64,000 nucleotides of DNA from Pelagomonas calceolata. Its lineage: Eukaryota. A program made the translations under genes and the position numbers. Each line of letters starts with the position of its first letter. The first letter of the stretch is position 1. Shown one piece after another: positions 6,052 to 48,455 of the stretch. Location of the stretch: the NCBI GenBank assembly GCA_918797485.1, contig CAKKNE010000001.1, forward strand, positions 6,200,001 to 6,264,000, written 5' to 3'. The notes below the pieces were generated by a model. The model saw only the letters and a list, made by a program, of their open reading frames with translations. It was not told the DNA's origin and did no database searches.

Positions 6052-6365
6052 CTTGCTAACTGTGTTTGTGATCTTATCTGATCTGGCGAGCGTCGAGACC
6101 TACGCCGCGTAGCAAGCGGAAAGGTCCCAACACCTAGCGGCAGTAAGACACTAGAAAGCACTCCCGGCAGACGTCCGCGGACGCCCGCTGTTTTCACGCG
6201 CGCCCACCTTTGCGCACACGGTTACGCTAGGAAAAGGCAGCTGACAGTCTTGTTATCGACGCGGCAGCTCAAAACCGCGCATCAGCCCAGCCGCACGAGT
6301 TTTTGGCCCGCCGCGCCCAAGGCCGCCTCCGCCGCCTCCGCCGCGCCCAAGGCCGCCCCTCCGCC

Positions 6366-21100: not shown

Positions 21101-24100
21101 ACCGTCGTGCCCCCGGATGCTGCTTCCCTCGAGGTCGACGCGCGCGGTCTCGCCGTGCACGTGACGCGCGACGACGAGAGCGTCGTGGTCGCGGGCCACC
21201 CCGCGAGCCTCTCCTCCACAAAAGTTTCGGCTGTGCCCGCCAAAGAGGGCCGTTTTGTGGTTGAGGTCGCGGCAGCAGACTCCGAGGCGGTAGCTAAAAC
21301 AAAGCGCTTCGTCGTGACGGCGAACCGGCGGTCGTCGCCAGCCAAGCGCCGTCTTGAGGCGGCGCCCGCCTTCACGGGGTCGCTGGCCACGACGTTCACC
21401 GTATCACAAGGAACCGTCGTGCACCTCGAGGCGTCGGCGGGGACGTTCGAGGGCCCCGGAGCTAAAGGCGCCGGGGCGACGTCCACGGACCTGGGCTCAT
21501 TACGCTACGTCCCGCCCGGCGAGAGTACGGGCGTGGCCCTCCTGCGGGCGTCGCTCGATTCAGTAACCTGGGTCGAGGCCGCCGCGCGGTACGCGCCGCA
21601 AACGGGCGCGCCTTTTTCAATCGAGGCGGCGGTGGCATCCGTCACCACGGACGTCGGCGTGGCGGTGGCGCTGGACTTCACGCTGCGCGGCGGCGGCGAG
21701 TTCGTCGAGGTCGCTTTGGCCGGCGACGGCGTCCTGAGCGTGTCGCCGCACGCCGGCGCGCGCGTCACCGAGAACGCGACGCGCATCGCGGGGATGCCCG
21801 CGGCCGTCGCGGCGACGCTCTCTACTCTGAAGTTCGCACCGGCGACGGCGGGCCCCTCGAAGGTGTCGGCCGCGGTCGGCGACGTCGAGGCATCTATTGA
21901 CGTGCGCGCCGCGGCGCCGCCCCCGCGCATGAAAGCGAAGCACGACGGTGCGACGCGTCTCGCCGAGGACACGCCGGCCAACGTGACGGCGCTGTTCGAG
22001 TTGGTCGATGTAGGTTACGCGCTGCCCGTCGCCGTCCGGGTGACCGCGGCCCACGGAACGATGACCGAGACCATCGTCAAGGGAACTATTGATGCCGTGC
22101 GAGCGGCGCTCTCTACCTTGGAGTACGTCCCGCCGCCGGACTTCGTCGGCGTCGATGTTGTCGAGGCGGCCGTCGCGCTGTCGGAGGGCGTCTGGGGCGA
22201 GGCCGCGCGCACCGTCGTCCAGGTCACGCCCGTCGGCGACGCGCCTATTGTAACGATGGACGCCGAGATGACGGTCGCGGGCGTTGCGCCCGTCTCACTG
22301 CATATAGAGGTGGCCGACGCCGACCGCGACGACGAGCTCGAAGTTGTCGTCGTCGCATCGAACGGCACCGTCTCCTTGTCAAACCACGCCGCCGTGGCGG
22401 CCGGCGCGACCGTGATCGACGGCCCGGATGCGGCCTGGACCGCGCTGCCACAGTGCGGCGGCGAACCCGTTAATGGTTCACAGGTGCGCCTCGCGGGCGA
22501 CGCGGCGCGGCTGCGGCGGGCGCTCGCGGCGGTGACCTACGCGCCGCCATCGTCCGTGGGCATGGATGATGTCCGAGTCATCGTCCGAGACGGCGAGGGG
22601 CGCTGCGCGTCCGCGTCGGCGGACGTCCGGATCACGGCCGCGGCGTCTTCATCATCAACCGTTTCGCACGAGGGCGACGTGTTCATGGAGCTGCTTGAAG
22701 ATACGACGGGAACGCTGCCTCCACTCCAGCTGGAAGGCGCCGGCGCGCTCAACGTTTCGGTCGAGGCGTCGTGCGGCGGCATTTTTGAGCTCGAGGCCGG
22801 CGACGACGTCCGGGTTTGGAGTGAAGGCGCGGCGCTGGGGTTCGAGGCCTCTAACTCAAAAGCCGCCGCGGCCGCGCTCGCGCGCGTCGCGTTCACGCCC
22901 CCTCACAATTTTTACGGCGGCTGGGGCGCGGAGACCTTCGAGGACGCGCGGTCCGACGCCATCAAACGGTTCTGCCGCAGTCTGCGGGAGGACCCGCCGT
23001 CCTTCGCTTTGAAAGTGCGTTCGTCGGGCGATATGGGCTGGACCTCGAAGACGCTCCGCCTGAACGTCCTGCCGCAGAACGACCCGCCCATCTTAACAAT
23101 AGACGGCGCCACGACGGCGGTCGCCGCGGACGCGGACGGGGCCGCGCCCTGGTCGCGCGTCGGGGCAGGCATATCGGTGAGCGACGCGGACGCGGGCCTC
23201 CTCGACGTGCGCGTCGCATCCAAAAAAGGTGCGCTGCGCCTGTCGCCGGCGGCGACGGGCGTCGAAGTCCTGGCGACGCCCTCCACCGAGGTGAGCCTGC
23301 GCGGCCCGCCGCGGGCCGTCGAGCGAGCCTTGCGGGCCGCGCTCGAGTTCCGGCCCGCGGCGCCGGGCGTCTCGACTCTGAACGTCACGGCGCGCGACGG
23401 CGGCGGCTGCGGCGCCGGCCCCGAGGGTATTGCGGAGGCCCAGCTGTCCGTGCGCGCCGCGGGGTCGCGCGTGGGCCTGGCCTGGGCGCCGGGCCAGGTC
23501 AACGCGACGACGGCGGACGTCGTGTCGGTCGCGCCGCGACTCTACGCGAACGGGACCCTCGCGACAAGCGCGGAAGGCGCGGTGCGGCTGGAGGTCCAGG
23601 CCACGAACGGGCGCGTGGCCCTCGGCGAGGACCGGGTCAGGTTCCGGGAGCCGCCTGTCAAGTTCCGGCTCGACGTCGAGAGCGGCCCCGCCGCGCAGAT
23701 GGAGGGCGTTGCCGAGGTCTGGACCGTCTCGACGAGGGCCGACCATGTGTTCGGCCGCCAGCGCATCAAGGTCGAGGCGGCGGCGTCGGGCGACGCCGCC
23801 GAGGCCCTCGGGACGGTCGCGCTCGAGATTGGTTTGACGCACCGCAACCGGACGAGCGCCGCGTTCTTCGAGCTCGGTAGTACTGCTGAGGCGGCCCGGA
23901 CGAACCTGTTGGACGCGCTGGGCGAGGTTGTTACATTAGGCCGCGTGGACGTTTCCGTCGAGTTCTTCGGGGCGTCGAAACCGGGCTTCGGCGCCGCCGA
24001 GATCGAGGTGACGACCTTCCAGAACGAGCCTCTCCCTCTCTTGGACATCTCCGTGGACCGCTGCGGGCCGACGGTCGAGGACGGGACCCTGGTCGAGGGC

Positions 24101-27100
24101 GTGTCGCGGGCGTCGAGTTGCACCGCGCGCGTCGCCGAGATCCAAAAAGCCACGACGACGCCCGACGTCCAGCGCATCTCCATCCGCGCGAACCACACGT
24201 TTGAGGGCGGCACCTTTACGCTCACGTACCGGTCGCCGACGCGGTACGATAAACCGACGTATGCGGACGGCGACTTCGAGACGCGGCCTTTACAATACAA
24301 CGCGACGATCTACGAAGTGCGGGACGCGCTCGAGCAGCTGCCCGGCGTGGGATTGGTCGACGTCCAGCGCATCGCGCGCGACGCGCGCATACCCCTCGCG
24401 AACTACTTCTGGTGCACCGCGCGCGAGAACACGGACGCGCCGACGCTGACGGCGGCGCCCACGTTCAACACGCTGGAACCGTCGGCCAAGCCCTCCCAGA
24501 AACCGTCGCACTCTCAAGCGCCGACGTACCGCACGCTCCAGCCGACCCCGGGCCCGTCGGAGACGCCCACGTCGCTGCCCACGCAGCTCCCTTCGCCTCT
24601 ACCGACGGAGCTGGACGTGGACTGCGACTTCTACGCCGTGGAGAACGCCTGGCAGGTCACGTTCTGGACCGTCGAGGGGCGCGCGCCGCTGCTCGTGGTC
24701 AAGCACACCGAGGGGGCTTCGGAAGAGGGCTACGAACGGTGCCCCGAGTGCGAATACGCTACGAAAGGTGCCCCGAGGGACGCCGTGGGCCCCTTCTACC
24801 ACGAGCGCTACAAGAACGTCAGCGCGACGAACACGCTGTGCTGCCAGAAACTCCGGCCCGCCTGGGACGCGCGCATCGCCGCGGAGGCCGGCGTCGAGCG
24901 GGCCGTCGTCGTGAAGACGCAGGAGGCCTCAATACCGCTCGGGGGCGAGCTCGCGCTGCGCTGGGGCGACCGCACCACTTCCTATGTGTCGGCGACGCGC
25001 GCGCCGGCCGGCCACCTCAAGAGCGCCCTCGAGGCGCTGGACCCCTCGACGCGCGGCGGCATCAAAGTGGAAAGGCTGTCGCGGACGGCCGAGGGCGCGG
25101 CGGCGTGGAGCCTGACCTTCGCGAGCCGCTTCGGGGCCGTCGGACCCATAGGCGTCGACGAAACGAGGTTAGAGGGCGGCCGGGCCGTCGCGCGCCTCGA
25201 CACGCGGGGCCGGGCGCCGCGCGACGTGGGCGTCTATGCCCTGCGCGTGTCCCAGGGCATGGCCCAGGACGGGTTCAGCGCGGCGACGCAGCCCATCTCG
25301 GCGTCGGCGGCGCCGGCGGACGTGGCGGCGGCGCTCGCGGCCGCGGCGGAGGCGGCCGGGATTGCCTCGTTCAACGCGACGGTCGAAACGGCTCCGAAGC
25401 TACGGGCCGCGACGCTGGCGGGGTATGTGGTCGAAATAGGCGGTGGGGATGGCGAGCGCCCCGTGGTAGCTGTCGAGAGCACGCGGGGCCTGCGGAAGGG
25501 CGTCGACGTCGTGCTCACGGCAAGTGACGGTTGGCCGCAACGGGCCTACGCCGTCGCCGTCGACGCGCGCGTACCCGATCCTATCACGGAAGTGCAGCTC
25601 CTAAGGTGTGCGCGGTCGCACGCGGACTCTGAGGATGAGACCTTCACGTTGACGTTCCAGGGCCTCGAGAGCCCTCCCATCAAGTTGGGCGCGGCGCCGA
25701 CGCCGGCCGTACTCCCGGCCTGCCTGGGAACCCTACCTGCCTGCCGGGGCGACGGGTCGACGCTCCTGGAAATCCTCCAGGGTTGGCTCGTGGGCGAGGG
25801 CGTCATTGACACTAAGGACGGCGTCGCTGTCGAGGGGGGCGATCGGCTCTGCGCCGGCCCCATCAACTGTCTCACAAATGAATGCACCAAGGCCCAGAAC
25901 GCGACGCTCTACGGGGGCTGGGGCCTGCGCGCGCCGGCCGAGACGCGGATCCGCGTGCCGGGCCTGGCGGGCGACGTCGAGCCCTTCGCGGCGCGGACGA
26001 CATACACGTCCCTGAATCCGTGGAACCGCGGGCCGGGCCTCACGAACGGCACCTTTGTGACGATTACGGAGGAGCTCCGGGGCCTCGCGCCGCTCGTGGC
26101 CGAGGTCCAGACCGTCGAAACGTCCGCGACCCCGACCGAGGCGCCCACCTTCGAGACGGAGGCGCCGACGTTCGAAACGGAGGCGCCGACCTACGGAACG
26201 GGCGTGCCTTCGCAGCAACCGACCGTGATGGACACTTCAGGAATCCACGGCGTCTTCCGCCTGGGGTTCCGGGGCGCCGCGACGATTCCGCTGCCGCACG
26301 ACGCCTCGGCGCGACAGATGGAGGACGCGCTCAACGCGCTCGGCACGAACGTGACCGTGACGCGCGTCGCGCTTGGTACGAACAGCTACCGCTGGCGCGT
26401 GACCTTTGCGGCGGGCGGCGGCGACCTGCCCCTCCTCTCGAACCCGTCGGCGACCTGTGGCGACTCCGGCGCGGAGGAGTGCCACCTGCGCGTCGGCGAG
26501 GCGTTTTCGTCCTTAGTGGAGCCGCCGTACGGCCGGCCCGCCTCCGTCACGATCACTGAGGTGCGACGCGGCGCAGCGTCGGTCTGGGGCTCGTTCCGCC
26601 TGCGGGCGACGCCGCCGTTCCGGCGCGGCGCCGCGACGTCGGACCTCAGGGTGGACGTGGGGCCCGTGGCCCTGGAGGCGTCTCTGAGAAGGCTGCCCGG
26701 CTGCGCGGCGGCGACCGTCTCCATGAGAAACGCGTCGTACTGGGTCGTCGACGGCCTCGACGACGGCGTGGCCCTCGCGGTAGACGCGGATCAACTCAAA
26801 AGTAGCGTCGACTGCGCGACGTGCACCGAAAGTACCTGGGCCGGCTGCGCGGATTGTATCGATCCCACGGTCAACGTGCGCCGGCTCGTTGATCATGCCG
26901 TCGTGACGGGCGCGCCGGACGCCGTCGCGGCCGTCCTCTCGAAGGCGACGTACGTCCCCGAGGTCGCTTCGGTGAAAGGCGGCCTCGGGCGCGTCGCCTA
27001 CGAGGTGACGAGCGGTGAAGCCTCCTCAAAAGTCGAGGGGCGCGTGTTCGTCGAGGCGACGGCGACGCCGCCGTCGCTCGAGGCGCCCGCGGTCGCGTTC

Positions 27101-30100
27101 GCTGACGAGGGGCGCCGCGCGCCCATCGACGGCATCGCAACGCGTGGGACGCGGGCGGCCGTCACCCTCGAGGCGGACGGCGGTATTTTATCAGTAGCGC
27201 CCGTGCGAGGCGCCGCCGTGGCCGAGGACGGCCCGAGCGTATCTATCAATGGGCCCTCCGACCGAGTCAACGCCGCCCTGGCGACGTTGACCTACGAGGC
27301 GCCTCCTTCATATCATTCCGACCGCCTCGCCAGGGAAGTGCAGGTGGTCCGGGCCTACGCGCCGCCCTCCCTTTTTATGTTTGCCGTGCGGACCTGGGCC
27401 ACGGGCAACGCGTTGGTTGACGGGACCTTCACGCTTCGTTTGAACTGCGACTACCTGATCGACGACGTGAAGGAGGCCATCATCCTTCATCATGGAACCA
27501 AGAACGGCAGCCGCTTCGATCCCGTGCACCCGAACGCGTCGATGGGCCTCGCCGGCGTCTACGCGCGCGTCGAGCGGCGCCTCGCGAACCGGACCGTCGA
27601 CATTACTATCGACGCGGACGCCGCGGCGCGCGGTGCGGGCGCCGCGCGGGACGCCGGCGGGGACGCGGAGGATATCAGAAGAGGCGATGGCGGCAACAAG
27701 CACAACGTCTCGTTCGAGGGCAAGCTGCGCGAGGGGTTCGATGCCTGCGCGCGCGACGCGTTGACCGTGGCCGGCGCCCAGGCCGAGTTCGACGACTGGC
27801 TCGTGGCGAAGCCGAATGTGACGAGCTTCTTCGGGCAGGTGCTCGGCGTGAGCGTTATTCGGGCCCCCGTCGACATGGACGCGTGCGTGCGGCGCGGCCT
27901 CCAGCACGCGTGCGGCTACGACTGGGAGGTGACCGTCGCCGGCGCACCATCAAGCTTCCGGGCGCCCGCCGTAGTGCGGGACGGGAGCAATAAACCAGTT
28001 GGCATGACCGTGAAACAAAAGTTCGCGGCGTCGTGCGGGGCGGGAGAGTGCAACCTCGCCATGGCCGCCGACGCGACGAGCGACGTGTCCGTGCGGACGA
28101 CGCGCCGGAGCGTCGCCGCCGCCAGCGAGCTGACGCTGGCCTTCGCGGGCGCCTCGACGCCGCCGCTGCGCGCGGATGCGAGCGCTTCTGTTATTGAAGC
28201 GGCGCTCGGCGCGCTGCCGACGGTCACGGGCGTGCGCGTGGCCCGGGACGACGAAGCCGCGCGCCGCGACGGCGGCCGTGCCTGGGCTGTGGAATTCGAC
28301 CACCTCGGGCCCCAACCGTTGCTGCGAGCGACGGCGACGGGCGGCGCGGCCGTCGTCGTGTCGCGCAAGCGCGCGGGCGCGGCAACTTTTAAAAGAATCA
28401 CGGCGCGCGTCGAGGGCGGCAACGCGGAGGTTATCGAGGTGGTGGTCCGGCCCAAGGTCAAGGCGCCCAAGCTGCGCCTCGCCGCTGCAGAGGTCGTGGC
28501 GGGTCGTGAGGATGAGGTGGTCGCGGGTCTGTTCGGCGGCGTCGAGGTGGAGGCGGCTGGCGTCGTGGCCGTCGAGGCGGCGTGCGAGCGGGGACCTTGT
28601 GCGTTCCTGGTGCCCACGCACGACGGCGTCGAGGCCGTCTTGGCGGCAAACTCGGTGCGCCTGCGCGGCGTTGGTCCGAGCATTCAGAGGGTGCTGCGGA
28701 ATACTTCACTGATACCGGGTGCTGATGTTGATGGTGTTGATGTCGCGGTGCTCTCGGTGGCCGAGGGCAACAGCGTGTCGCGCGCGTTCTTGCTCGAGGC
28801 CGTCAACGACGCGCCCTCGATCGACGCGGGGCCATTAGGCGAGCACCTGGAGCTGCCGCGGCGGCGGGTCCTGCTCAACGGGTTCGTTGTGAGTGACGTG
28901 GACGATGACACGTTGCTGCTCACGCTGGCGGCCGCGCGCGGCACGCTGACCATGGCGCGGGCGGCAAGGCGAACGCTTGCTCGGTGGAGTGCGGGCGACG
29001 GCGACGGCCAGCACGCAAAACTCGAGGCGCGCGGCGCCGTTGAGGCATGGAACAATGCGCTAAATTACGTGGAGTACGAACCGCCCGCCGACGACGTCGA
29101 TGACGTCGTCACGCTGACGGCGGCCGACAATGCTTCGTCAGTGACACAGACAGTCTCCATCAGCGTCACGGGCGCGGCCTCTTGCGCCGCCCGCATGCTT
29201 CTCAAGGCGCAGCGAAAGTTCGCGGCGCTCGTGCGCCCAGACGCCGTGGGGGCAGCTCTCGAGGCTAAGGTAGTGACGGAGGGCGCTGTGGTGTCGCTGG
29301 ACTTCTCGCTCGACGCGCCCTGTGGGAGGCAAGCGCGGTTTGTGGCCGTCGTTGCGCCCGAGAGCGGCCGCGTACGCCCGGCGGACGCCGTCGATTTGAG
29401 CTTCGCTAGCTTCGATGATCTTGCGAAGGGTGCGATGCGGATAGAGGCGGAAACGGCCGGCGCACTCGAGAAGGCGCTCGGGCTGCTCGTCTACGAGCCG
29501 CCGCGCGACGTCGACGGCATGGTGTCCATGACGGTCGCCGTCGAGGCGACGGGCGGCGACGCGACGGGCGTGCTCGAAACGGAGTGGTGGTTCCGTATTG
29601 AATCAAGGGATGACGCGCCTACTGTAAGTGTGGATGTCTTCGACGACACCTTAATAGTGGACGCGGTCGTCGCGCGCGCCGGCGCTTCTACGGACGTCGT
29701 CGCGGCCGAGGCGGCGTCGACGACTGGTCCCGCGTTCGCCAAGGGCGCCTGGAGCGTCGAGGACGAGGCGGACTTTGTCAGCGTGGCCGTGGAGGTCGCG
29801 GGCGACGTGGCGCTCTTCCTGAGCGTCGAGGAGGGCTGCCGGCGGGACGCCTGCGGCGCTTTGCATTTTGGGAATGGGACAAGGAGCGGCAGATCGTTTT
29901 CCTTCGCGGCGAGTCCGTCCGACGCGATGAAGGCTCTGGACGCGCTGCGCGTCGTGGCCGTCGCCGACGACTGCTGGCGCGCGCGCGACGACGCCGCGGC
30001 CGACAAAGCCAGGGCGGGCGCGCTGACCGTCTCCGTCGAAGACGCGGGCGGGCAGCGGGCGACGCGGACCGTGCAAATTTCCGCGCGGCCACCGCGGCCA

Positions 30101-30388
30101 GGCGCGCTTTCTGTGGCGGCCTCGGGCGGCGTGGTGGATGTAGCCGAGGACGGCCGCGCGTTGATCAGCGGCGTCAGCGTCGCCGGCGGGCTCGGGACGG
30201 TCGATGGGTGTGGGGACAACGAGGTGGTGACGGTGCAGATCTCGGCGCGGTCCGGCCGTGTCGGCTCCGTGGGGAACTTCGTGGGCGTCGTCGTGGACCG
30301 CGTCGGTTCTGCGCTGCGCTTGCGCGGGCCGCGGAAGGCGGTTCAGGGGGTTCTTGATTCTTCGTTGCCCTCGGTGGCGACGTCGTAA
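18101..30388 (+). CDS. Giant (4095 aa) secreted adhesin-like protein with cadherin/Ig-like repeats, EVQ-type repeats and Pro/Thr stalks
   Basis: Signal peptide; repeated (V/A)NDAP/DDAP motifs preceded by L.Y.PP.D..G; central EVQ...GTF.L.F...DASA..ALEAL...W.VTF modules; uninterrupted 12.3-kb ORF. Confidence 0.8.
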   Translation: MMRLAAFVAVALAAEELPRYATTKSPNQPPSISYSGPKVAVDEGERFDLNIDVSDADVDEDYAGQLDVVCAGGRLDVSSKAGLRFRDAADGVAFRGPQAFVRKALQPLVYTAPSKGRGGDATIRCTVDDLGYSGVGGPRNATVAIPITIKNVNDAPIINAPAMLEVRGEEPLPISMVDPDSDVLSLTLRASHGALRWAGGDAASVLEASGSSDRLAERLLSLTYVPPPGYDGLATVSVTADDREAQTSMTIALRVRRDDAKPVLSLQAIKARRGEPTKVLRATVEGDADAVLQVKVVADNGALTLPEAPPGAYVRTRSGTEVAFDAGPGAVASTLAATTYDGDAGVIRVSIDGDETSVNIEIEEKEEAVTLVRDEPIVIAHLKTNGAIKTEEDTNATFAITLVAKGSTIHEVEVTGNRLGVVDFGREEHGNIHKRTRRGVWVRGNATMVNDVLTSLVFAPAADRHGTAYVDLSLDGVTTTPLPCVVRAVADPLVVAWGEAVPGDFLPPLMIDDADDADGLFEVLLKGDVEAPAVPGVYQSKTEAGLLLKGGLARLPLDRLTGKGRVEATVACGDRSSKATLVAHASSSKATAHAFDDGGAAVVVGSEDESLALDLRLRAGGDPTAGLEVVIEAGVGSLTVVNKPPGVDVVDDEYVTLRASAADLNTGLKALRYAPPEDWHGTDLVNATLKDLKGNYISARSLLVTIDAVDDAPRITTNNFQASTPSTRLDDAISVEDVDDGGLVRVALTPKLGSLTLKRPALAGVTIEEGAGLIILGAADRVSDALRRIDYVYPRATSEDDLIAIRAADVDGQLAEGLFSVDEVVVRRPDQINGRPVLTLERSSIKATEGDRVALPRCVVDDHEAAAFSQTVHVVLHAMQSNARFLVVDTEGVEVLNEDNVLRLTGTPALLTEVLDRVSVAYPAAWCGADVVTYAASDGEGLRARNATVAVSLEAANDAPLVTLEASDATASVGDAVVVAATFSDNDANGCGDAIIKATYTVVPPDAASLEVDARGLAVHVTRDDESVVVAGHPASLSSTKVSAVPAKEGRFVVEVAAADSEAVAKTKRFVVTANRRSSPAKRRLEAAPAFTGSLATTFTVSQGTVVHLEASAGTFEGPGAKGAGATSTDLGSLRYVPPGESTGVALLRASLDSVTWVEAAARYAPQTGAPFSIEAAVASVTTDVGVAVALDFTLRGGGEFVEVALAGDGVLSVSPHAGARVTENATRIAGMPAAVAATLSTLKFAPATAGPSKVSAAVGDVEASIDVRAAAPPPRMKAKHDGATRLAEDTPANVTALFELVDVGYALPVAVRVTAAHGTMTETIVKGTIDAVRAALSTLEYVPPPDFVGVDVVEAAVALSEGVWGEAARTVVQVTPVGDAPIVTMDAEMTVAGVAPVSLHIEVADADRDDELEVVVVASNGTVSLSNHAAVAAGATVIDGPDAAWTALPQCGGEPVNGSQVRLAGDAARLRRALAAVTYAPPSSVGMDDVRVIVRDGEGRCASASADVRITAAASSSSTVSHEGDVFMELLEDTTGTLPPLQLEGAGALNVSVEASCGGIFELEAGDDVRVWSEGAALGFEASNSKAAAAALARVAFTPPHNFYGGWGAETFEDARSDAIKRFCRSLREDPPSFALKVRSSGDMGWTSKTLRLNVLPQNDPPILTIDGATTAVAADADGAAPWSRVGAGISVSDADAGLLDVRVASKKGALRLSPAATGVEVLATPSTEVSLRGPPRAVERALRAALEFRPAAPGVSTLNVTARDGGGCGAGPEGIAEAQLSVRAAGSRVGLAWAPGQVNATTADVVSVAPRLYANGTLATSAEGAVRLEVQATNGRVALGEDRVRFREPPVKFRLDVESGPAAQMEGVAEVWTVSTRADHVFGRQRIKVEAAASGDAAEALGTVALEIGLTHRNRTSAAFFELGSTAEAARTNLLDALGEVVTLGRVDVSVEFFGASKPGFGAAEIEVTTFQNEPLPLLDISVDRCGPTVEDGTLVEGVSRASSCTARVAEIQKATTTPDVQRISIRANHTFEGGTFTLTYRSPTRYDKPTYADGDFETRPLQYNATIYEVRDALEQLPGVGLVDVQRIARDARIPLANYFWCTARENTDAPTLTAAPTFNTLEPSAKPSQKPSHSQAPTYRTLQPTPGPSETPTSLPTQLPSPLPTELDVDCDFYAVENAWQVTFWTVEGRAPLLVVKHTEGASEEGYERCPECEYATKGAPRDAVGPFYHERYKNVSATNTLCCQKLRPAWDARIAAEAGVERAVVVKTQEASIPLGGELALRWGDRTTSYVSATRAPAGHLKSALEALDPSTRGGIKVERLSRTAEGAAAWSLTFASRFGAVGPIGVDETRLEGGRAVARLDTRGRAPRDVGVYALRVSQGMAQDGFSAATQPISASAAPADVAAALAAAAEAAGIASFNATVETAPKLRAATLAGYVVEIGGGDGERPVVAVESTRGLRKGVDVVLTASDGWPQRAYAVAVDARVPDPITEVQLLRCARSHADSEDETFTLTFQGLESPPIKLGAAPTPAVLPACLGTLPACRGDGSTLLEILQGWLVGEGVIDTKDGVAVEGGDRLCAGPINCLTNECTKAQNATLYGGWGLRAPAETRIRVPGLAGDVEPFAARTTYTSLNPWNRGPGLTNGTFVTITEELRGLAPLVAEVQTVETSATPTEAPTFETEAPTFETEAPTYGTGVPSQQPTVMDTSGIHGVFRLGFRGAATIPLPHDASARQMEDALNALGTNVTVTRVALGTNSYRWRVTFAAGGGDLPLLSNPSATCGDSGAEECHLRVGEAFSSLVEPPYGRPASVTITEVRRGAASVWGSFRLRATPPFRRGAATSDLRVDVGPVALEASLRRLPGCAAATVSMRNASYWVVDGLDDGVALAVDADQLKSSVDCATCTESTWAGCADCIDPTVNVRRLVDHAVVTGAPDAVAAVLSKATYVPEVASVKGGLGRVAYEVTSGEASSKVEGRVFVEATATPPSLEAPAVAFADEGRRAPIDGIATRGTRAAVTLEADGGILSVAPVRGAAVAEDGPSVSINGPSDRVNAALATLTYEAPPSYHSDRLAREVQVVRAYAPPSLFMFAVRTWATGNALVDGTFTLRLNCDYLIDDVKEAIILHHGTKNGSRFDPVHPNASMGLAGVYARVERRLANRTVDITIDADAAARGAGAARDAGGDAEDIRRGDGGNKHNVSFEGKLREGFDACARDALTVAGAQAEFDDWLVAKPNVTSFFGQVLGVSVIRAPVDMDACVRRGLQHACGYDWEVTVAGAPSSFRAPAVVRDGSNKPVGMTVKQKFAASCGAGECNLAMAADATSDVSVRTTRRSVAAASELTLAFAGASTPPLRADASASVIEAALGALPTVTGVRVARDDEAARRDGGRAWAVEFDHLGPQPLLRATATGGAAVVVSRKRAGAATFKRITARVEGGNAEVIEVVVRPKVKAPKLRLAAAEVVAGREDEVVAGLFGGVEVEAAGVVAVEAACERGPCAFLVPTHDGVEAVLAANSVRLRGVGPSIQRVLRNTSLIPGADVDGVDVAVLSVAEGNSVSRAFLLEAVNDAPSIDAGPLGEHLELPRRRVLLNGFVVSDVDDDTLLLTLAAARGTLTMARAARRTLARWSAGDGDGQHAKLEARGAVEAWNNALNYVEYEPPADDVDDVVTLTAADNASSVTQTVSISVTGAASCAARMLLKAQRKFAALVRPDAVGAALEAKVVTEGAVVSLDFSLDAPCGRQARFVAVVAPESGRVRPADAVDLSFASFDDLAKGAMRIEAETAGALEKALGLLVYEPPRDVDGMVSMTVAVEATGGDATGVLETEWWFRIESRDDAPTVSVDVFDDTLIVDAVVARAGASTDVVAAEAASTTGPAFAKGAWSVEDEADFVSVAVEVAGDVALFLSVEEGCRRDACGALHFGNGTRSGRSFSFAASPSDAMKALDALRVVAVADDCWRARDDAAADKARAGALTVSVEDAGGQRATRTVQISARPPRPGALSVAASGGVVDVAEDGRALISGVSVAGGLGTVDGCGDNEVVTVQISARSGRVGSVGNFVGVVVDRVGSALRLRGPRKAVQGVLDSSLPSVATS
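26137..26192 (+). repeat. 21-bp coding tandem repeat (TEAPTFE x~3)
   Basis: gaggcgcc(c/g)ac units at 21-bp spacing. Confidence 0.8.
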
Positions 30389-31962: not shown

Positions 31963-32258
31963 GTTGCTTCTTGTTTCGCTGCGTGCGATCGATTTGGGCT
32001 ACCGCGCGGTCGTCCGGAGCCGAAGGCGGCTGTGGAACTTTATTGCTTAGACCTTAGGGATGGTGCTGACTGCTCGTAGCTACCAAAGCGGCCTTTTCTC
32101 GCCTGGATGCGATTGATGGGCTCGCGTGTTGCTCACAGCGTTAGTTTCAGTAAGTATAACGCGCCCAGCAGGACTGCGGCCGATTTTTGTTGTGTTTGCT
32201 AGTGTGTTACAGTCCGCTAGCTACACCGTTTTGCCACGGCTTTTTGATACAGCCCAGC

Positions 32259-41340: not shown

Positions 41341-42087
41341 CTACTCCTTCTTCGCGTAGACCGTCGACGCGAAGGGTCCGACGGCCTGGAGCATGTCCTC
41401 GACCGCGACGCCCTGCTGGATCAGGTAGACCATGAGCATGTTATTGGCGTGGATTTGCCCGGCGAAGAAGAGGATCTCTCCGTACATCTCCTTGGTGACG
41501 CCCATGCTCTCCAGGTGCGCTGCCTCGCGTTCCAGCAGCAGACCCTTGTGGCAGATCGCGTACTTCGTGGCGATCGCGATCGTGCGCGCTCGCTCATTCT
41601 GGGTCGGAAGGCCGCCGTCCACGATCAGCTTGACATCCTCCTGAGATAAAGGACCGCCCATGGCAGGGCCACTGCCCATGGCGTGGAACGAGAGACACAT
41701 CTCGCAGTTGTTCGCGGCGCTGACCACGGTGTAGATGATCTGCTTCTCGGGATCGGTAATGTAAGTCATCGGGTACGAGTCAAGGAGCTTCTCCTTGTCC
41801 GTGAAGAGCTTGACCATCGCCGGCGTGAATTGCGGCATGGACCAGAGGGCGAGCGGAGGCATGCCTCCCACCTCCGTCGCATACTTCAGGGCATCAGCCT
41901 TCTGCTCCTCCGTCGGCACCTGCGTGCAAATTAACCAGTGTCTGCGCCTTCGCGTAGCAGCGTAGAGCCGGCGCTGCCAGGTGGCAGTCGGCTCGAAGTA
42001 AATATTGATGACCGCGCGGATCGCTACGACAATGGAGCCGTCGTCGTTGTAGCCGGGCAGCTTCGCAAGCTCTTCGAGAGATGACAT
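41341..42087 (-). CDS. AhpD/carboxymuconolactone-decarboxylase-like protein; predicted intron at 41920-41994
   Basis: EKQIIYTVVSAANNCEMCLSFH (AhpD-type CxxC..H); ATG at 42087. Confidence 0.75.
   Translation of the reverse strand: MSSLEELAKLPGYNDDGSIVVAIRAVINIYFEPTATWQRRLYAATRRRRHWLICTQVPTEEQKADALKYATEVGGMPPLALWSMPQFTPAMVKLFTDKEKLLDSYPMTYITDPEKQIIYTVVSAANNCEMCLSFHAMGSGPAMGGPLSQEDVKLIVDGGLPTQNERARTIAIATKYAICHKGLLLEREAAHLESMGVTKEMYGEILFFAGQIHANNMLMVYLIQQGVAVEDMLQAVGPFASTVYAKKE
41920..41994 (-). mobile_element. Degenerate introner, 75-nt predicted GA-AG intron
   Basis: 3' end cactggttaatttgcacgcag matches the family TIR; flanking 8-mers gagccgac / gtgccgac (7/8); the other TIR is not recognisable. 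Confidence 0.7.
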
Positions 42088-42440
42088 GGTTCGCGTGGGC
42101 AGCTTTTTTGGTCTTGTTGGGGGGAGCAATCGATTCTCTGTGAGAGGCTGCCAAAGCTGACGTGGCAGGTGATGTTCCGGAGGGTTGCACGGCCTCCTGG
42201 AACCATCAATCAACACAAAAACTGCGTGGGGCGTCTTTTTTTCTTGCTAGTGTCTTACAGGCCGCTAGCGCGGATTTCTAAACTCGAGCCAGGCCAGCTC
42301 ACAGAGATGGCTCGCTAGCATCCATTCTTGGCTGAGATAGTTCGTTTATTGCGGTCGCGCCACGAGCAGTACAGCAAGTTGGAGCGACATCCAACAGCTG
42401 TAGATAGCCTCAGCAGCATCAGCAGCATCAGCAGCTAAGG

Positions 42441-45400
42441 ATGCGCGTCCCATTTCGCAAGCTGCGCAACCTCGCGAAGACTACAGAGGCCTTGGTGGTC
42501 TCCGCCTGGCTCACGAGGCAAGGCCATCCGCCGTCGCGACGGCTCGTGCTGCCAGAACAACTCACCGCGTCGCTCGCCCTGCCCGAGCCGGCCGCGGCGA
42601 TCGACGAAGGCGCGTGGCGCGCGGCCGAGACGATCGAGGCGCTCGAGGGCCTCACGTTCGGCGAAGCGATCGCGCCGCCGTCGACGATCGAATGCTTCGA
42701 TATCAGTCATTTTTGCGGGCTGCAGACCGTGGGCGCGTCGTCGGCCTTTGACCGCGGCGTGCTGGCGCCGGACCGCTACGGCTGGTACTCTCTCAGCGAC
42801 GGCCCGCCGGACGACCCGGCCGCCATCGCCAGGTCCGTGACCCAACGTCTCGAGGAGACGGACCCGCCGGACCTGTTTGTCCTCGACGGCGGTATCGCCC
42901 AGCTCAACGCCGCCACGCGCGCCGTCGCCGCGGCCGGCGCCTCGACGCGCTGTATCTCGCTCGCCAAGCGCGAGGAGCTCATCTACGGCGCTGGGCCGAC
43001 GCCTCTCGCGCTGCCGCGGCACTCGCCGACGCTCACGCTGCTACGACGTCTCCGAGACGAGGCGCACGCGGCGGCCCTGTTGGCGCACCGCCGCGCCCGC
43101 GGTCGCGCGGGCGAGACGACGTTTGCGTCGGTGCTCGACGAAGCGCCCCTCGATCCCGACGCGAAGCGAAGCCTCCGCGCCGCCTTTACGTCCGCGGCGG
43201 ACCTGCGCGAGGCGCCAATTGACGCGCTCCGCGACATCATCGGCGACGACGCCGCCGCCGTCCAGTCGTGGCTCGCCGCGCCGGCCGCAACTCAGCAAGC
43301 CGAAAATTTCGACGACCTCGCTGCGCTCGTCGTCGGCAAGGGCGGCGCCGTCGACGCCGTCGCCGCGGACGGCCGGCGCCGCGCGTCCTCGGCCGTGGTC
43401 GACGCTGCCGCCGAGGCGCAGGCGCGGCGGTGGTGGCAGCCGCGGCGGGCCCTGCGCCTCGAGACCGCGGACCCTATACATCTCGCGCGGCTCCTCGAGG
43501 CCGCCTCTGAAGGCACCGGGCTCGACGACGCCCTGCTGTCGTGGACGCGGCCGTCGCACACGGAGGAGCGTCCCGTCGTCGCGGCTTCGACGCCTCTCCC
43601 GGCCAATCAGATGATGAAGCGCGCCGGCCCGGCGTTCGAGCCGACGCCCGGGACGTTCCAGATGCGCTCGCCCTACGAGCCGCGCGGCGACCAGCCGACG
43701 GCGATCGCGCACCTCGTCAAGGGCTTAGGACGAGGGACGCCGCGCGTAGTGCTCGCCGGCGCGACGGGCACGGGCAAGACCTTCGTCCTCGCCCACGCCA
43801 TCGAAGCTTTATCAAAGCCGACCCTCGTCCTCGCGCCGAACAAGGTCCTGGCGGCGCAGCTCTGGTCCGAGCTCCATTCGCTCTTCCCGGACAACTGCGT
43901 CAAGTTCTTCTGCTCGCACTTTGACTTCTACCGGCCCGAGTCCTACTCTAGGGCTACGGACAACTACGTCGAGAAGCGGTCGGCGACGAACAGCCGCATC
44001 GACGCCCTGCGCCACGACGCGACGCGGTCCCTGCTCGAAAGGCGCGACACGATCGTCGTCGCCACCGTGTCGTGCATCTACGGTCTAGGGATGCCCGCGG
44101 AGTACGTGGAATCTGCAGTCCCTTTGCAGGAGGGCCAGCCCTGGGCCTCGCCGGCGGCGCTCGCCGACACGATAGCTAGTTTACGATACGCGCCCGGCAG
44201 CAGCGACCGCGGTTCTTATTCACTCGCCGAGAATGATGGCGCCGTGACGCTCTCCGTCGGGCTCGTCGTCGACGACTTGCGCCTCGATGTGCGCTTAGTA
44301 AGTGACGATACCTGGACGATCGAGTCGCTCGCCCTCGTCGGCGAGGACACTTCTTCAACGGTCGACGCGTACGTGCTCTACCCGGCGTCGCACCACGCGG
44401 CGACGCCGGAGGAGATCGAGCGGGCCTGCGACGATATAGAAATTGAGCTCGTGCAGGAGCTGGAGCGGCACCTCGCCGCGGGTCGCTGGCGCGAGGCGGA
44501 ACGCTTGCGACGCCGCGTTGCCGACGACGTGGCCATGCTGCGGGCGGAAGGCTGGTGTGCGGGCGCCGAGAACTACGCGCGGCATCTGAGCGGTCGCGCC
44601 GAGCACGAGGCGCCCGCGACGCTGATCGATTATTTTCCCGACGACGACTGGCTGCTTGTTGTTGATGAGGCTCATGTAGCAGTCCCGCAGCTCCGCGGCA
44701 TGCACGCCGGCGACCGCGCGCGGAAGTCTTCGCTGGTGGAGAACGGGTTCCGGCTGAAATCCGCCCTGGACAACCGCCCGCTCACGGCGTCGGAGTTCTG
44801 GGCGCGCGTGCCGCAAGCCGTGCTTGCGACGGCCACGCCGTCCGAGGACGTGCTCGACATGTGCGATCGAAGCCCAGAGAACGTCGCGTCATTAGTGGTG
44901 CGGCCCACGGGCGTCGTCGATCCGTCAGTTACGGTCGTCAACGCTTCTAAGGCGGGCGGGCTCGAGGACCACCTCCTCGCGGCCGTTTCCAACGCGGAGG
45001 GACGGGCACTCGTGACTTGTTTGACCAAACGTTCCGCCGAGGCGCTGGCGGACTTTTTGACGAGCCACGGCATTCCCGCGGCGTGGCTCCACGCGGACTT
45101 GGATAGCCAGAAGCGGTTGAAGGTCTTGGACGCGCTGCGCCGTGGCGACCTGAAGGCCGTCGTGGGCTGCAATTTATTGAGAGAAGGACTTGATTTGCCC
45201 CAGGTCTCGCTCGTGGCGATCGTCGGCGCGGAGAAGCGCGGTTATCTGCGGAGCGCCACATCTTTAATTCAGACCATTGGTCGGGCGGCGCGGCACGTCA
45301 ATGGGGAAGTACTGTTGTATACGGACGACGGCTTCGTGAGCGATTCGATGCGGGAAGCGATTGAAGAGACGAATAGGCGTCGCTCAATTCAGCTGCGCTA

Positions 45401-45776
45401 CAACGAAGACAACGGCGTGACGCCGCGGGGCGCGGCCGCGGCGGGTGGCGACGCGAACGACGCCCTCGCGGAGCTGCTCGGTCCCTCGCGCGGCGGTCCG
45501 GGAGGAGGAGGCGCGATGCGCGAGCTGCCGGTCTTCGAAGACCCCACGGACGAGGCGCTCCACGTCGCACTCCGCGAGTGGCGCAAGGCGACGGCCGCGG
45601 CCAACCGAAAGCGCCCCTTCCGCGTCTTCCCCGAACGCACGCTGCAAGACCTCGTCGCAAAGAAGCCCACGACCACCTCCGAGTTGAAGGAGGTCTGGGG
45701 CCTCGGGCCGGCGCGGCTGGCGCGGCACGGCGACGAGGTGCTGGCGGTGGTGCGGGAGTACGTGGTGTCGCGTTGA
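42441..45776 (+). CDS. UvrC (RNase H-like nuclease + HhH)-UvrB helicase-HRDC fusion protein
   Basis: UvrC: IECFDISH, DD, PDLFVLDGG..QL, SLAKREE, LRDEAH. UvrB: PRGDQPTAI, GATGTGKT, APNKVLAAQL, FDFYRPESY, DEAH, NLLREGLDLPQVSLV, LIQTIGRAAR, ETNRRR. HRDC: LREWRK..PFRVF..TL..L..P...L..V.G.G. Confidence 0.92.
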   Translation: MRVPFRKLRNLAKTTEALVVSAWLTRQGHPPSRRLVLPEQLTASLALPEPAAAIDEGAWRAAETIEALEGLTFGEAIAPPSTIECFDISHFCGLQTVGASSAFDRGVLAPDRYGWYSLSDGPPDDPAAIARSVTQRLEETDPPDLFVLDGGIAQLNAATRAVAAAGASTRCISLAKREELIYGAGPTPLALPRHSPTLTLLRRLRDEAHAAALLAHRRARGRAGETTFASVLDEAPLDPDAKRSLRAAFTSAADLREAPIDALRDIIGDDAAAVQSWLAAPAATQQAENFDDLAALVVGKGGAVDAVAADGRRRASSAVVDAAAEAQARRWWQPRRALRLETADPIHLARLLEAASEGTGLDDALLSWTRPSHTEERPVVAASTPLPANQMMKRAGPAFEPTPGTFQMRSPYEPRGDQPTAIAHLVKGLGRGTPRVVLAGATGTGKTFVLAHAIEALSKPTLVLAPNKVLAAQLWSELHSLFPDNCVKFFCSHFDFYRPESYSRATDNYVEKRSATNSRIDALRHDATRSLLERRDTIVVATVSCIYGLGMPAEYVESAVPLQEGQPWASPAALADTIASLRYAPGSSDRGSYSLAENDGAVTLSVGLVVDDLRLDVRLVSDDTWTIESLALVGEDTSSTVDAYVLYPASHHAATPEEIERACDDIEIELVQELERHLAAGRWREAERLRRRVADDVAMLRAEGWCAGAENYARHLSGRAEHEAPATLIDYFPDDDWLLVVDEAHVAVPQLRGMHAGDRARKSSLVENGFRLKSALDNRPLTASEFWARVPQAVLATATPSEDVLDMCDRSPENVASLVVRPTGVVDPSVTVVNASKAGGLEDHLLAAVSNAEGRALVTCLTKRSAEALADFLTSHGIPAAWLHADLDSQKRLKVLDALRRGDLKAVVGCNLLREGLDLPQVSLVAIVGAEKRGYLRSATSLIQTIGRAARHVNGEVLLYTDDGFVSDSMREAIEETNRRRSIQLRYNEDNGVTPRGAAAAGGDANDALAELLGPSRGGPGGGGAMRELPVFEDPTDEALHVALREWRKATAAANRKRPFRVFPERTLQDLVAKKPTTTSELKEVWGLGPARLARHGDEVLAVVREYVVSR

Positions 45777-45843: not shown

Positions 45844-46612
45844 TCACGCGACGCGGGCCTTCTTGGCCTTGGCGCGCATGTCGTCCAGCGTCTCGTCGTC
45901 GGGGTCTTCGCCGCCGCCGAGCTCGTGGAGGACAGAGGAGGCAGCAGAGACGCGCCGCCCGGCGGCGGGCTCGTCCGGTGGGGCGAACGTCGGGATCATC
46001 AACTTCTCCTTGGCCGGCGCCGGCGCCTTGCGCTTGGGCGGGTCCGAGCCGCGAAAGTCGACGGCGGGCTCGAGCGGCGCCGCGCGCGGCGGCGAGACGC
46101 GCGCGACGGACGGCTCGTAGAACTCGCGGCGGAACTTGACGCAGAGGTCGCTGGCCTTGCCCGCGAAGAGCACGTCGACCTCCTTCGCGAGCTCGTCCTT
46201 GGCCGCGGGGTCCTTGGCCGACCTGCGCGTCACGCCGTCGACGCGAGACGAAGGCGGACAGTTCGACGCCGCACGACAACTTGGCGTAGACGGCGAGCGC
46301 CCGCGTGAAGTTGTCGTAGACGCGCGTCCCGCGGGGGAAGCGGCCGGCCACGAGCGCGATGAAAGACCTCGCGTCGCTCGCCCGCTGCGCGGCGACCAGG
46401 CGGTAGTGCTCTGACGGGCTCGGCGGCGCGATGCCGGCGGCGGCGTGGGCGGCCGACGGGCTTGGCGGCGAGGCCGCGGCGAGGGCGGCGGCCTGGGCGG
46501 CGCGCCGCGGGCTCACCACATCCACGGCGCCGAGCAACGCCGCGAGCGGGAGCGAGTCAGCCCGCGCCGCGAGTGGAAGCGAGTCGGCCCGTGAGAGCGG
46601 GAGCGTGTCCAT
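45844..46612 (-). CDS. Small protein with one PAH (paired amphipathic helix)-like domain; GT-AG intron at 46223-46274
   Basis: Spliced DARSFIALVAGRF..VYDNFTRAL..ELAKEVDVLFAG..DLCVKF resembles a Sin3 PAH repeat; the 52-nt intron joins two ORFs. Confidence 0.65.
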
Positions 46613-48455
46613 TGTTGCAAGCAGAGTCTGTAGTCGCGCTGGAGTGAGCGCGCGGGAGAATTATTTGCAAGGAAATGAGCGCGAGGAGCGACACGAGCGC
46701 GCGGAGGCGACAGGAGTGATATGCGGTGAATACCTAACGACTCTCAAGCCGCTTGAGCTAGGTAACCGCGTGTTTGACTCGATGACCGCGCACATTTAAG
46801 CTAGCTAGCGGCTGTGTAAGACACTAGGGATGCCTTGCAAGCCCGATCAAAACGCGGCATGCAGTCGTTCGAGTGCCGTTCGGTTCGCTAATGGTCCAAA
46901 GAGATCAATGGGACACGTACTGGGGGTCGAAAAGGGAATTTTTTTAATTCGCGGCGACGATGCCACGATAGGCCCACGGCGGCCGCGGCGGTTTAATCCT
47001 GTCAATCCCTGCCGAAGAGGTGTCCCTGGGGTCGCCTAGGGTCGGTACTATACACGTGCAAGCGCCTACACCGCACGCGCCGCCGCTTCCAGCATTTTCA
47101 ACCGAATTCTCTCAGCAGCCCACGCAGTGCTAGTAGGATTTGCCGAGGTCTCGCTTCCAGGGCTCTTGGAGAGCACTAGACTGCCGCATCGATGGCGTAT
47201 GCGGCACAGGCGACTACCCGCCACCAGACCTACCCCGAGAGGCCTCCAGGAGCCGATCTGCATCCGAAAAAAGTGTGCAATTTGGACCCGATCGCGCCCC
47301 GTTCCCGTCAAAAACGCTAATTATCCGAGGCCCCCCAGTAGTCGCCGTAGCGGTCTCGTCGGACCCTATACTACCCAACCGATAGTCAACTACGAGTATA
47401 TGACATCTATACCGCGAGAAGGGTACTTTGGGCTGCCCACGCTCGGGACGTGAACATCTTGATCTGGACCTCGCGCAAGTCGATCGATCATGGAAAAAAT
47501 GATTGTGCCACGGTCCATGGTGATGGTACACGGGCTGATGGTCGCAGGTCCATGTAATTTGCCCGTTTTGTGCGAGATCGTGCGGCCGCGAGTTGGACGA
47601 GGCGCGCCGAGTTTTCCGAATAAGTAATCCTATGTAGTAGACGTTCAGGCCGGTTATCTGGCCCGTCTGGTAACCGAAGCGCCTGAAACGCGAATTTATT
47701 TTACAACTCACCGGTCTGGGGCCTTTCTGGTGCTCCGTCTCCGCACCGTCGTCCGCGGAGAACGGGCAAGTCGGTCGATCGTGAATAGAACAACGGCGTT
47801 TTGGTTCTTCTGGGTGGTGGCGTCGCTGATACTCGCAAGTGTAGGCTTCGAGCCATTTTCGCATAAACGCGGGGGCGCGAAGTCTCCGTTTCGGGCGGCT
47901 CTAACGGGGCATCTAATCGTGCTCGCTGTCGTTCTGGTGGATATGATGGACTCTACCACTAACAAAAGGAAGGAAACGAACATAAACTCGGGAGTTGTCT
48001 AGTAGAATTCTTCTCCCGCCCTCCGAGCGCGGGCCGTCGGCTCCGGTTCCGTCAATTATGTATGAAAACTGGGCTGGAGTTGATATAATGTACCAATCGG
48101 ACGGTAGAAGCCGGCATTAATCGCTGGTGCACTTTGGCGAGCCGTAAGTCTCATCCGCGAATGTCGCGGGCGGTGCCTTCCGGGAGGCGCGAAGGTATGT
48201 TCCCAGGCCGCTACTCTGAAATATTTGGTCTCGGCGAACGACTAGGATGTATTCTGAATCTCGGTCATTCTTTTGACGCTATCGAGGCGTATCTTTGAAT
48301 TTGCTAGAGACCTTGATACGCTAGGTTGATTAACCGGTTTGCGGAGAGCACAGCTCGGAGAGAGGCTGCCCGAATTGCTCCATCGTCGCGCGGCGCAGAA
48401 GGAAGCGGCTTCCCGCGGTCGCGCCATCGCCCTCGCACGGTTTCCGAGCACCGCT

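What the first reader, a model, noticed from the sequence alone, without database searches (positions are those of the whole stretch)
42441..45776. Single-chain UvrC-nuclease/UvrB-helicase/HRDC protein: a rewired bacterial-type excision-repair enzyme in an alga
Seen: one continuous 1111-aa ORF among eukaryotic genes. It carries the UvrC C-terminal RNase H-like domain (~42680-43100) with all expected catalytic-type residues (FDISH Asp, DD, DGG Asp, RDEAH His), a degenerate HhH, a UvrB core (~43655-45425; Walker A GATGTGKT, beta-hairpin HFDFYRPESY, DEAH, QTIGRAAR) and a RecQ-type HRDC (~45545-45765). Established: in bacteria UvrB and UvrC are separate proteins that dock through UVR coiled-coils, UvrC's GIY-YIG domain makes the 3' cut, and UvrA loads UvrB via UvrB domain 2. 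Here the GIY-YIG and both UVR docking domains are not recognisable, domain 2 looks highly diverged, and HRDC replaces the UvrB tail. Inference: a tethered, possibly UvrA-independent helicase-nickase that makes only the 5'-type incision, perhaps in an organelle (basic N-terminus). I do not know of this architecture being characterised.
Basis: partly seen in the sequence, partly recalled or inferred. Interest (0 to 1): 0.9.

Follow-up and report, generated by a model that had tools for sequence, protein, structure and literature searches.

The report
Algal fused UvrC–UvrB DNA repair enzyme
This alga carries one transcribed gene that joins half of the bacterial repair nuclease UvrC to the repair helicase UvrB and a RecQ-type DNA-binding domain; the UvrC–UvrB fusion also occurs in other pelagophytes, haptophytes and a green alga, and it likely cuts DNA once beside damage without the bacterial damage sensor UvrA.

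Summary
[quoted passage not shown] Pfam finds no GIY-YIG or UVR domain. It is transcribed, and one RNA-like contig spans the junction.

The three-domain protein recurs in Aureococcus, Prymnesium and Diacronema. The green alga Cymbomonas has the UvrC–UvrB join. It was in 0 of 60 bacterial genomes. The UvrB half falls inside Cyanobacteriota (100/99).

The nuclease catalytic residues are kept in every algal sequence covering them. UvrA-contact residues of UvrB domain 2 are largely lost. The best reading, inferred, is a UvrA-independent helicase-nickase that makes the 5' cut on pre-nicked or opened DNA.

The organelle location is not supported here: there is no signal peptide, and the basic N-terminus is conserved core. 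Whether the genome has UvrA could not be tested. Ten full-text searches found no description. Verdict: new variant of a known kind.

The parts
42298..42440 (+). 5' untranslated region; in-frame stop at 42405-42407, so no N-terminal extension
   Evidence: contigs of X4, X8 and X10 (three studies) all begin at 42298 with no gaps; sequence; relative L001 also has an in-frame stop just upstream
42441..45776 (+). single ORF, 1111 aa: UvrC C-half, linker, UvrB core, HRDC
   Evidence: exact sequence is already a gene model in NCBI/UniRef
42453..42518 (+). conserved basic N-terminal helix (residues 5-26, R.LR..A...E.LV.S.W); possibly a remnant of UvrC's central domain
   Evidence: hhalign places it on the UvrC central domain only with low confidence and not when tested alone
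42675..43076 (+). UvrC RNase H-like 5' endonuclease domain; D87 (42699), D125 (42813), D149 (42885), K176 (42966), H209 (43065)
43116..43274 (+). degenerate (HhH)2, glycine hairpins lost (intact in Cymbomonas P0211 and in P0213)
43275..43550 (+). predicted helical linker conserved among the algal fusions (RRWW motif at 43425-43436); no known family found
   Evidence: Atlas feature search gave no usable hit
43650..45434 (+). UvrB core: Walker A 43758-43781, beta-hairpin 43911-43988, domain 2 44106-44384, DEAH 44664-44675, motif VI 45270-45293; no C-terminal UVR domain
45552..45752 (+). HRDC domain; the three solved relatives found are all bacterial RecQ HRDC domains

Best explanation
The gene encodes one chain that holds a UvrC 5' nuclease domain, a UvrB helicase core and an HRDC domain, and it likely works as a UvrA-independent helicase-nickase that makes a single cut on the 5' side of a lesion in DNA that is already nicked or opened. 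Inferred steps: (1) UvrB loads at a nick, gap, bubble or stalled fork rather than being delivered by UvrA. (2) Its ATP motor and beta-hairpin clamp one strand and move a short way until they stall at damage or a blocked end. (3) The tethered RNase H-like domain cuts 5' of that point, and the covalent link replaces the lost UVR docking coils. (4) HRDC supplies DNA grip lost from the HhH and the nuclease surface. The other end of the patch would come from a pre-existing break or another nuclease. The UvrB half likely came from the cyanobacterial ancestor of plastids and fused once in algae. The compartment in this species is open (mitochondrion or nucleus more likely than plastid).
For: One ORF, conserved: all three domains in the window protein, P0001, P0002, P0003, P0005 and P0356; UvrC-half and UvrB start in one frame also in P0208, P0211 (Cymbomonas) and intron-bearing locus L002. 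Catalytic residues: D125, D149, K176 and H209 kept in 9 of 9 algal sequences, D87 in 8 of 8 that cover it. Motor: conserved bacterial columns kept at 27-33 of 38, 19-21 of 22 and 64-69 of 86, against 7-13 of 21 in domain 2 (4 algae vs 73 bacteria); UvrB-HRDC model pLDDT 90.7 with TM about 0.9 to solved UvrB. The R183 equivalent is lost in 3 of 4 algae and the E215 motif in 4 of 4, while DNA-binding R190 is kept in 4 of 4 (roles from PMC3458569 passages). Deinococcus UvrC-C, nearly the same fragment, does not cut intact damaged DNA but cuts 3'-incised DNA robustly (PMC10085695 section 22). UvrBC finds lesions without UvrA but incises only after a 3' nick or in a bubble (PMC5814901 passages). 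Origin: algal UvrB inside Cyanobacteriota at 100/99; 4 signature columns shared with cyanobacteria, 0 with other bacteria; grouping with two Alphaproteobacteria rejected at p-AU 0.039.
Against: No activity has been measured. UvrA and a stand-alone GIY-YIG partner could not be searched for. The UvrC-C experiment included UvrA and UvrB, so it does not show UvrA independence. Basic residues around the nuclease site are lost (the R after the catalytic H in 9 of 9; YRR second R in 9 of 9), which could mean weak or no cutting. The hairpin keeps only 8-10 of 16 conserved columns, so lesion sensing may have changed. PolyA reads show zero depth at 43070-43443 in 4 of 4 runs of one sample, and only 1 of 4 laid contig sets bridges it. 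Some Aureococcus and metagenome models are split (P0150, P0004, P0180/P0194). Algal branches are long and differ in composition; the sister position to oxygenic cyanobacteria has only 80/86 support and the UvrC half is unplaced.
Confidence: 0.5

Rival explanations
1. A damage-independent, structure-selective helicase-nuclease for stalled forks, D-loops or recombination junctions, working like archaeal Hef (SF2 helicase plus nuclease) rather than as an excision-repair enzyme.
For: Hairpin Y92 and Y93 equivalents, 99-100% conserved in 73 bacteria, are changed in 4 of 4 algae; that such changes relax damage discrimination is recalled, with only the paper's title seen. HRDC is of RecQ type. Damage-independent UvrBC cutting is described in PMC7835731; Hef's fork role in PMC7690668.
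Against: The Y95/Y96, P98, E99 base of the hairpin is kept and the whole UvrB fold is retained. UvrB is only a weak helicase (PMC7835731).
Confidence: 0.22
2. Ordinary three-part excision repair with the parts repackaged: a separate UvrA loads the fusion and a separate GIY-YIG (Cho-like) nuclease makes the 3' cut.
For: Domain 2 is predicted to keep its fold; the pavlovophyte proteins keep R194 and Cymbomonas may keep R183; the genome could not be searched.
Against: UvrA-contact residues are lost in the window protein and in Aureococcus; domain 2 is only 37-38% identical between these two pelagophytes against 69-74% in the motor.
Confidence: 0.13
3. The nuclease domain binds metal or DNA but no longer cuts efficiently; the protein acts mainly as a DNA-binding ATPase or scaffold.
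For: Loss of basic surface residues and of the HhH glycine hairpins.
Against: The catalytic set is invariant across pelagophytes, haptophytes and a green alga; loss of (HhH)2 only partly impairs the 5' cut in Deinococcus.
Confidence: 0.12
4. Artefact: two adjacent genes read as one, a misassembly, or bacterial contamination.
For: Read gap at 43070-43443; split gene models in some assemblies.
Against: The gap is 75-78% GC and the equally GC-rich neighbour at 45875-46622 also has zero reads; an X4 contig spans 42298-44642 with 0 differences; same junction in distant algae, one with introns; GC3 0.84 like the neighbours; three DNA runs hold 0.99 of the sampled words but may be the source of the window.
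Confidence: 0.03

Closest known systems
Bacterial UvrB (TIGR00631; PDB 6o8e, 2fdc, 3uwx)
   Same: SF2 motor motifs, beta-hairpin, domains 1a/1b/2/3; 43-48% identity, TM about 0.9
   Different: no C-terminal UVR domain; UvrA-contact surface of domain 2 changed; hairpin partly changed; fused to a nuclease and an HRDC
Bacterial UvrC C-terminal half (PF08459; PDB 2nrt, 8b0q)
   Same: RNase H-like domain with DDH triad, second Asp and Lys, followed by an HhH-like region
   Different: no GIY-YIG, Cys-rich or UVR region; basic DNA-binding patches lost; HhH degenerate outside the green-algal type
UvrA-independent UvrBC complex (PMC5814901)
   Same: UvrB plus UvrC acting without UvrA on nicked or bubble DNA
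   Different: there two proteins, both nucleases present and a minor route; here one chain with one nuclease
Archaeal Hef / XPB-Bax1 helicase-nucleases (PMC7690668 passages)
   Same: SF2 helicase coupled to a nuclease (Hef's single-chain layout is recalled)
   Different: unrelated nuclease fold and helicase family; analogy only, not homology
Separate nuclear UvrB and UvrC genes of the red alga Cyanidioschyzon (earlier AI notes)
   Same: reported cyanobacterial-type uvr genes in an algal nucleus
   Different: reported as separate genes, UvrC intact and probably plastid-targeted; not checked here

Membership tests
UvrB (equivalog TIGR00631) | SF2 motifs I, II and VI and overall UvrB fold | tested here: met
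UvrB (equivalog TIGR00631) | score above the curated cut-off | tested here: not met
   655.9 bits vs 750.1
UvrB (equivalog TIGR00631) | C-terminal UVR coiled-coil for UvrC docking | tested here: not met
   no PF02151; HRDC instead
UvrB (equivalog TIGR00631) | domain 2 with UvrA-binding surface | tested here: inconclusive
   fold predicted intact; 7 of 21 conserved columns kept, R183 and E215 equivalents lost in the window protein; binding not tested
UvrB (equivalog TIGR00631) | damage-sensing beta-hairpin | tested here: inconclusive
   present, 8 of 16 conserved columns kept
UvrC (equivalog TIGR00194) | N-terminal GIY-YIG nuclease and UVR domain | tested here: not met
   no upstream exon
UvrC (equivalog TIGR00194) | RNase H-like domain with DDH triad | tested here: met
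   D87, D149, H209
UvrC (equivalog TIGR00194) | C-terminal (HhH)2 with glycine hairpins | tested here: not met
   aligns by position, but hairpins lost and no Pfam HHH hit in the window protein; met in P0211 and P0213
UvrABC excision system | UvrA encoded in the same genome | not testable with these tools
   no genome held
UvrABC excision system | dual incision releasing a 12-13-mer | not testable with these tools
   needs an assay; only one nuclease domain is present
RecQ helicases | RecQ helicase core with HRDC | tested here: not met
   only HRDC matches; recQ 71 bits vs cut-off 640; core is UvrB
Plastid-targeted proteins of complex algae | N-terminal signal peptide plus transit peptide | tested here: not met
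   window N-terminus: best 9-residue hydropathy -0.38, 5 basic residues in 15, in-frame stop upstream; simple hydropathy only, no predictor available; P0005 and P0356 do have a hydrophobic N-terminus (2.76, 3.11)

The most novel reading that the evidence does not exclude
Algae turned the cyanobacterial UvrABC machine into a single-chain repair nuclease that needs neither UvrA nor the 3' nuclease. It arose once, is still present in a green alga with an intact HhH, passed into pelagophytes and haptophytes where the HhH decayed and HRDC provides the grip, and it gives an organelle genome a form of excision repair that organelles are said to lack.
Probability: 0.3. Interest if true: 0.9.

Novelty: new variant of a known kind. 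Interest (0 to 1): 0.72.

Why it matters
A 2020 review states that nucleotide excision repair seems absent from organelles and that flowering plants have no UvrA, UvrB or UvrC homologues (PMC6981420 passage). A conserved, transcribed algal enzyme built from UvrB and half of UvrC makes it directly testable how marine algae repair bulky damage, and in which compartment. It is also a natural test of whether UvrB plus the 5' nuclease suffices without UvrA. Its spread (a green alga, pelagophytes, haptophytes) fits reported pelagophyte-to-haptophyte gene transfer (PMC5462543 passages). Databases label relatives 'Type III restriction enzyme', 'DNA helicase' or hypothetical, so the architecture is hidden by annotation.

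Tried and rejected
Upstream GIY-YIG exon: rejected. The divergent gene starts about 180 bases upstream of the first transcribed base, + strand reads there are near zero, and no joint enters the ORF. A 3-read non-canonical skip 42582-42934 in 1 of 4 runs was set aside.

Basic N-terminus as transit peptide: not supported, because the motif is conserved and lies within about 25 residues of the first Met in the 7 pelagophyte- and prymnesiophyte-type proteins examined. Most of these are automatic gene calls that could miss an upstream exon.

Viral carrier: 164 pattern matches in viral contigs, 0 confirmed.

Bacterial fusion: 0 of 60 genomes from four phyla; of loci L001-L184 only eukaryotic L002 had both halves in one frame. 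The metagenome scan read only 4 of 64 parts.

Origin of the UvrC half: unresolved. The algae form one clade (100/100) that is unplaced; grouping with oxygenic cyanobacteria is not rejected, p-AU 0.36.

Structure: the full-length model from 5 sequences was poor (pLDDT 56) and says nothing on domain packing. The linker stays without a fold assignment: the Atlas gave no usable hit and the VIA fold comparisons never ran.

Trees: one search had a mis-cut Diacronema row, fixed. 41 of 77 rows were used, 36 of 52, and 30 rows; redundant or long-branch rows were left out.

Papers: PMC2676014 and PMC1783470 are not held, so the roles of the lost basic nuclease residues are recalled. Supplements of PMC5462543 could not be read and may list this gene. 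PMC11985968, PMC3985635 and PMC1564403 passages held nothing on this fusion.
Full report
1. Observation. The window holds one 1111-aa ORF at 42441-45776 (+). Pfam gives UvrC_RNaseH 79-212, helicase families 412-504 and 849-952, UvrB 966-997 and HRDC 1038-1104, with no GIY-YIG or UVR family. NCBIfam and solved structures agree. Against a profile of 78 bacterial UvrC proteins the N-half covers positions ~375-608 of 610. About 90 conserved linker residues follow, then UvrB from its first strand. The neighbours are eukaryotic and GC3 matches theirs. The nearest named relative is Aureococcus (54-58%), so the host is pelagophyte-like by inference.

2. One gene. Four polyA runs of one sample show + strand RNA over the ORF and no canonical splice joint in it. 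Depth is zero at 43070-43443 in 4 of 4 runs, which counts against a single transcript. That stretch is 75-78% GC, however, and the equally GC-rich neighbour also has no reads. A contig of run X4 spans 42298-44642 with no differences. X4 is only guessed to be RNA, but it stops at the neighbour's intron and has no depth at 46623-46800. X8 and X10 break in the GC-rich stretch at different places. Contigs of three studies start at 42298, and an in-frame stop lies at 42405, so there is no upstream exon or extension in the main transcript.

3. Distribution. All three domains occur in P0001 and P0002 (Aureococcus), P0003 (Prymnesium parvum), P0005 (Diacronema lutheri) and unnamed P0356. The UvrC-to-UvrB join is also in P0208, in intron-bearing locus L002 and in P0211 of the green alga Cymbomonas tetramitiformis. 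The Cymbomonas model stops inside UvrB, so HRDC is untested there. It was found in 0 of 60 bacterial genomes from four phyla and in no viral contig. Some models are split (P0150, P0004, P0180/P0194); they look frameshifted, which I did not check at DNA level. These searches cannot show absence from other algae.

4. What is kept and lost. Nuclease: D125, D149, K176 and H209 are kept in 9 of 9 algal sequences and D87 in 8 of 8 that cover it. The arginine after the catalytic His is lost in 9 of 9 and the YRR patch almost wholly. The HhH glycine hairpins are intact in P0211 and P0213 and degenerate in the rest. Helicase: of columns at least 85% conserved in 73 bacteria, four algae keep 27-33 of 38, 19-21 of 22 and 64-69 of 86 in motor regions, 8-10 of 16 in the hairpin and 7-13 of 21 in domain 2. 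The R183 equivalent is lost in 3 of 4 and the E215 motif in 4 of 4, while R190 stays in 4 of 4 (numbering from the 2fdc alignment). PMC3458569 names R183 and E215 among UvrA contacts and R190 as a DNA contact (passages). The UvrB-HRDC model is confident (pLDDT 90.7) and matches solved UvrB at TM about 0.9, but its alignment was mostly bacterial.

5. Origin. In a 41-row tree the algal UvrB clade lies inside Cyanobacteriota (100/99) and is sister to 11 rows that include the named oxygenic cyanobacteria (80/86). Four signature columns are shared with cyanobacteria and none with other bacteria. A clade with two Alphaproteobacteria is marginally rejected (p-AU 0.039). In a shorter 30-row tree Cymbomonas is sister to the pelagophyte and haptophyte rows (94/94), which suggests a single fusion. 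Branches are long, and the haptophyte rows do not form one clade. The UvrC half is unplaced. The pelagophyte-haptophyte sharing fits the transfer described in PMC5462543 (passages).

6. Mechanism (inferred). In Deinococcus the isolated UvrC C-half does not cut intact damaged DNA but cuts 3'-incised DNA robustly, with UvrA and UvrB present (PMC10085695, section 22 and passages). UvrBC finds lesions without UvrA but incises only after a 3' nick or in a bubble (PMC5814901 passages). The fusion keeps these parts and drops the UvrA interface, the docking coils and the 3' nuclease. I therefore favour a UvrA-independent helicase-nickase that cuts once, 5' of damage at a nick, gap, bubble or fork (0.5). 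Rivals: a lesion-independent fork or junction nuclease like Hef (0.22), repackaged UvrABC with unseen partners (0.13), a non-cutting scaffold (0.12), artefact (0.03). Shown: architecture, transcription, conservation pattern and tree position. Not shown: activity, substrate, absence of UvrA, location.

7. Location. The window protein has no hydrophobic leader and starts at the conserved motif, as do the Aureococcus and prymnesiophyte-type proteins. Two pavlovophyte-type proteins have signal-like leaders. Plastid import is plausible for those two but not evident here. A basic, acid-free start fits mitochondria or the nucleus. No targeting predictor was available.

8. Novelty. Ten full-text searches returned no listing that describes this fusion; most hits were seen as listings only, PMC12972064 among them, and subscription journals are not covered. 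The protein is already a gene model in NCBI/UniRef, and relatives carry generic names. It fails defining features of both UvrB and UvrC as families, so it is filed as a new variant of the Uvr excision machinery. PMC6981420 (one passage) says NER seems absent from organelles, which is the standing question this gene bears on. Two earlier AI notes report separate UvrB and UvrC genes in a red alga; I did not check them.

Noticed in passing
window 6142-6154 (-), 32199-32211 (+), 42247-42259 (+), 46815-46827 (-): A dispersed motif of about 25 bases (CTAGTGTCTTAC...CCGCTAG core): 4 matches, 0 in 100 shuffles. One copy lies in the divergent promoter of this gene and is kept in relative L001; other contigs carry similar ends. 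Possible promoter element or small repeat.
   Followed up: partly
window 41341-42116 (-): Strongly transcribed divergent neighbour with a weak CMD/AhpD-like match (E 1.6e-4), a 108-base intron at about 41918-42025 and a sharp 5' end at 42116.
   Followed up: partly
window 42307-42318 (+): Three-codon upstream ORF in the 5' UTR; L001 has an ATG nearby but in a different context.
   Followed up: no
window 18101-30388 (+): 4095-aa ORF with a signal-like start and only a Big_9 Ig-like match (E 2e-8); possible giant surface protein.
   Followed up: no
P0213 (ENA, 461-kb contig): Unnamed UvrC C-half with the algal-type active-site changes and an intact HhH like Cymbomonas; the model ends before any UvrB.
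   Followed up: partly
L018, L036, L040, L054, L058, L075, L078: 7 of 78 bacterial-type metagenome uvrC loci have a uvrB match within about 6 kb upstream; where both are on one strand the order is uvrB then uvrC, the reverse of the algal fusion.
   Followed up: no
L036:5656-6681: UvrC-like match inside a 1115-aa stop-to-stop frame, much longer than usual UvrC; not examined.
   Followed up: no
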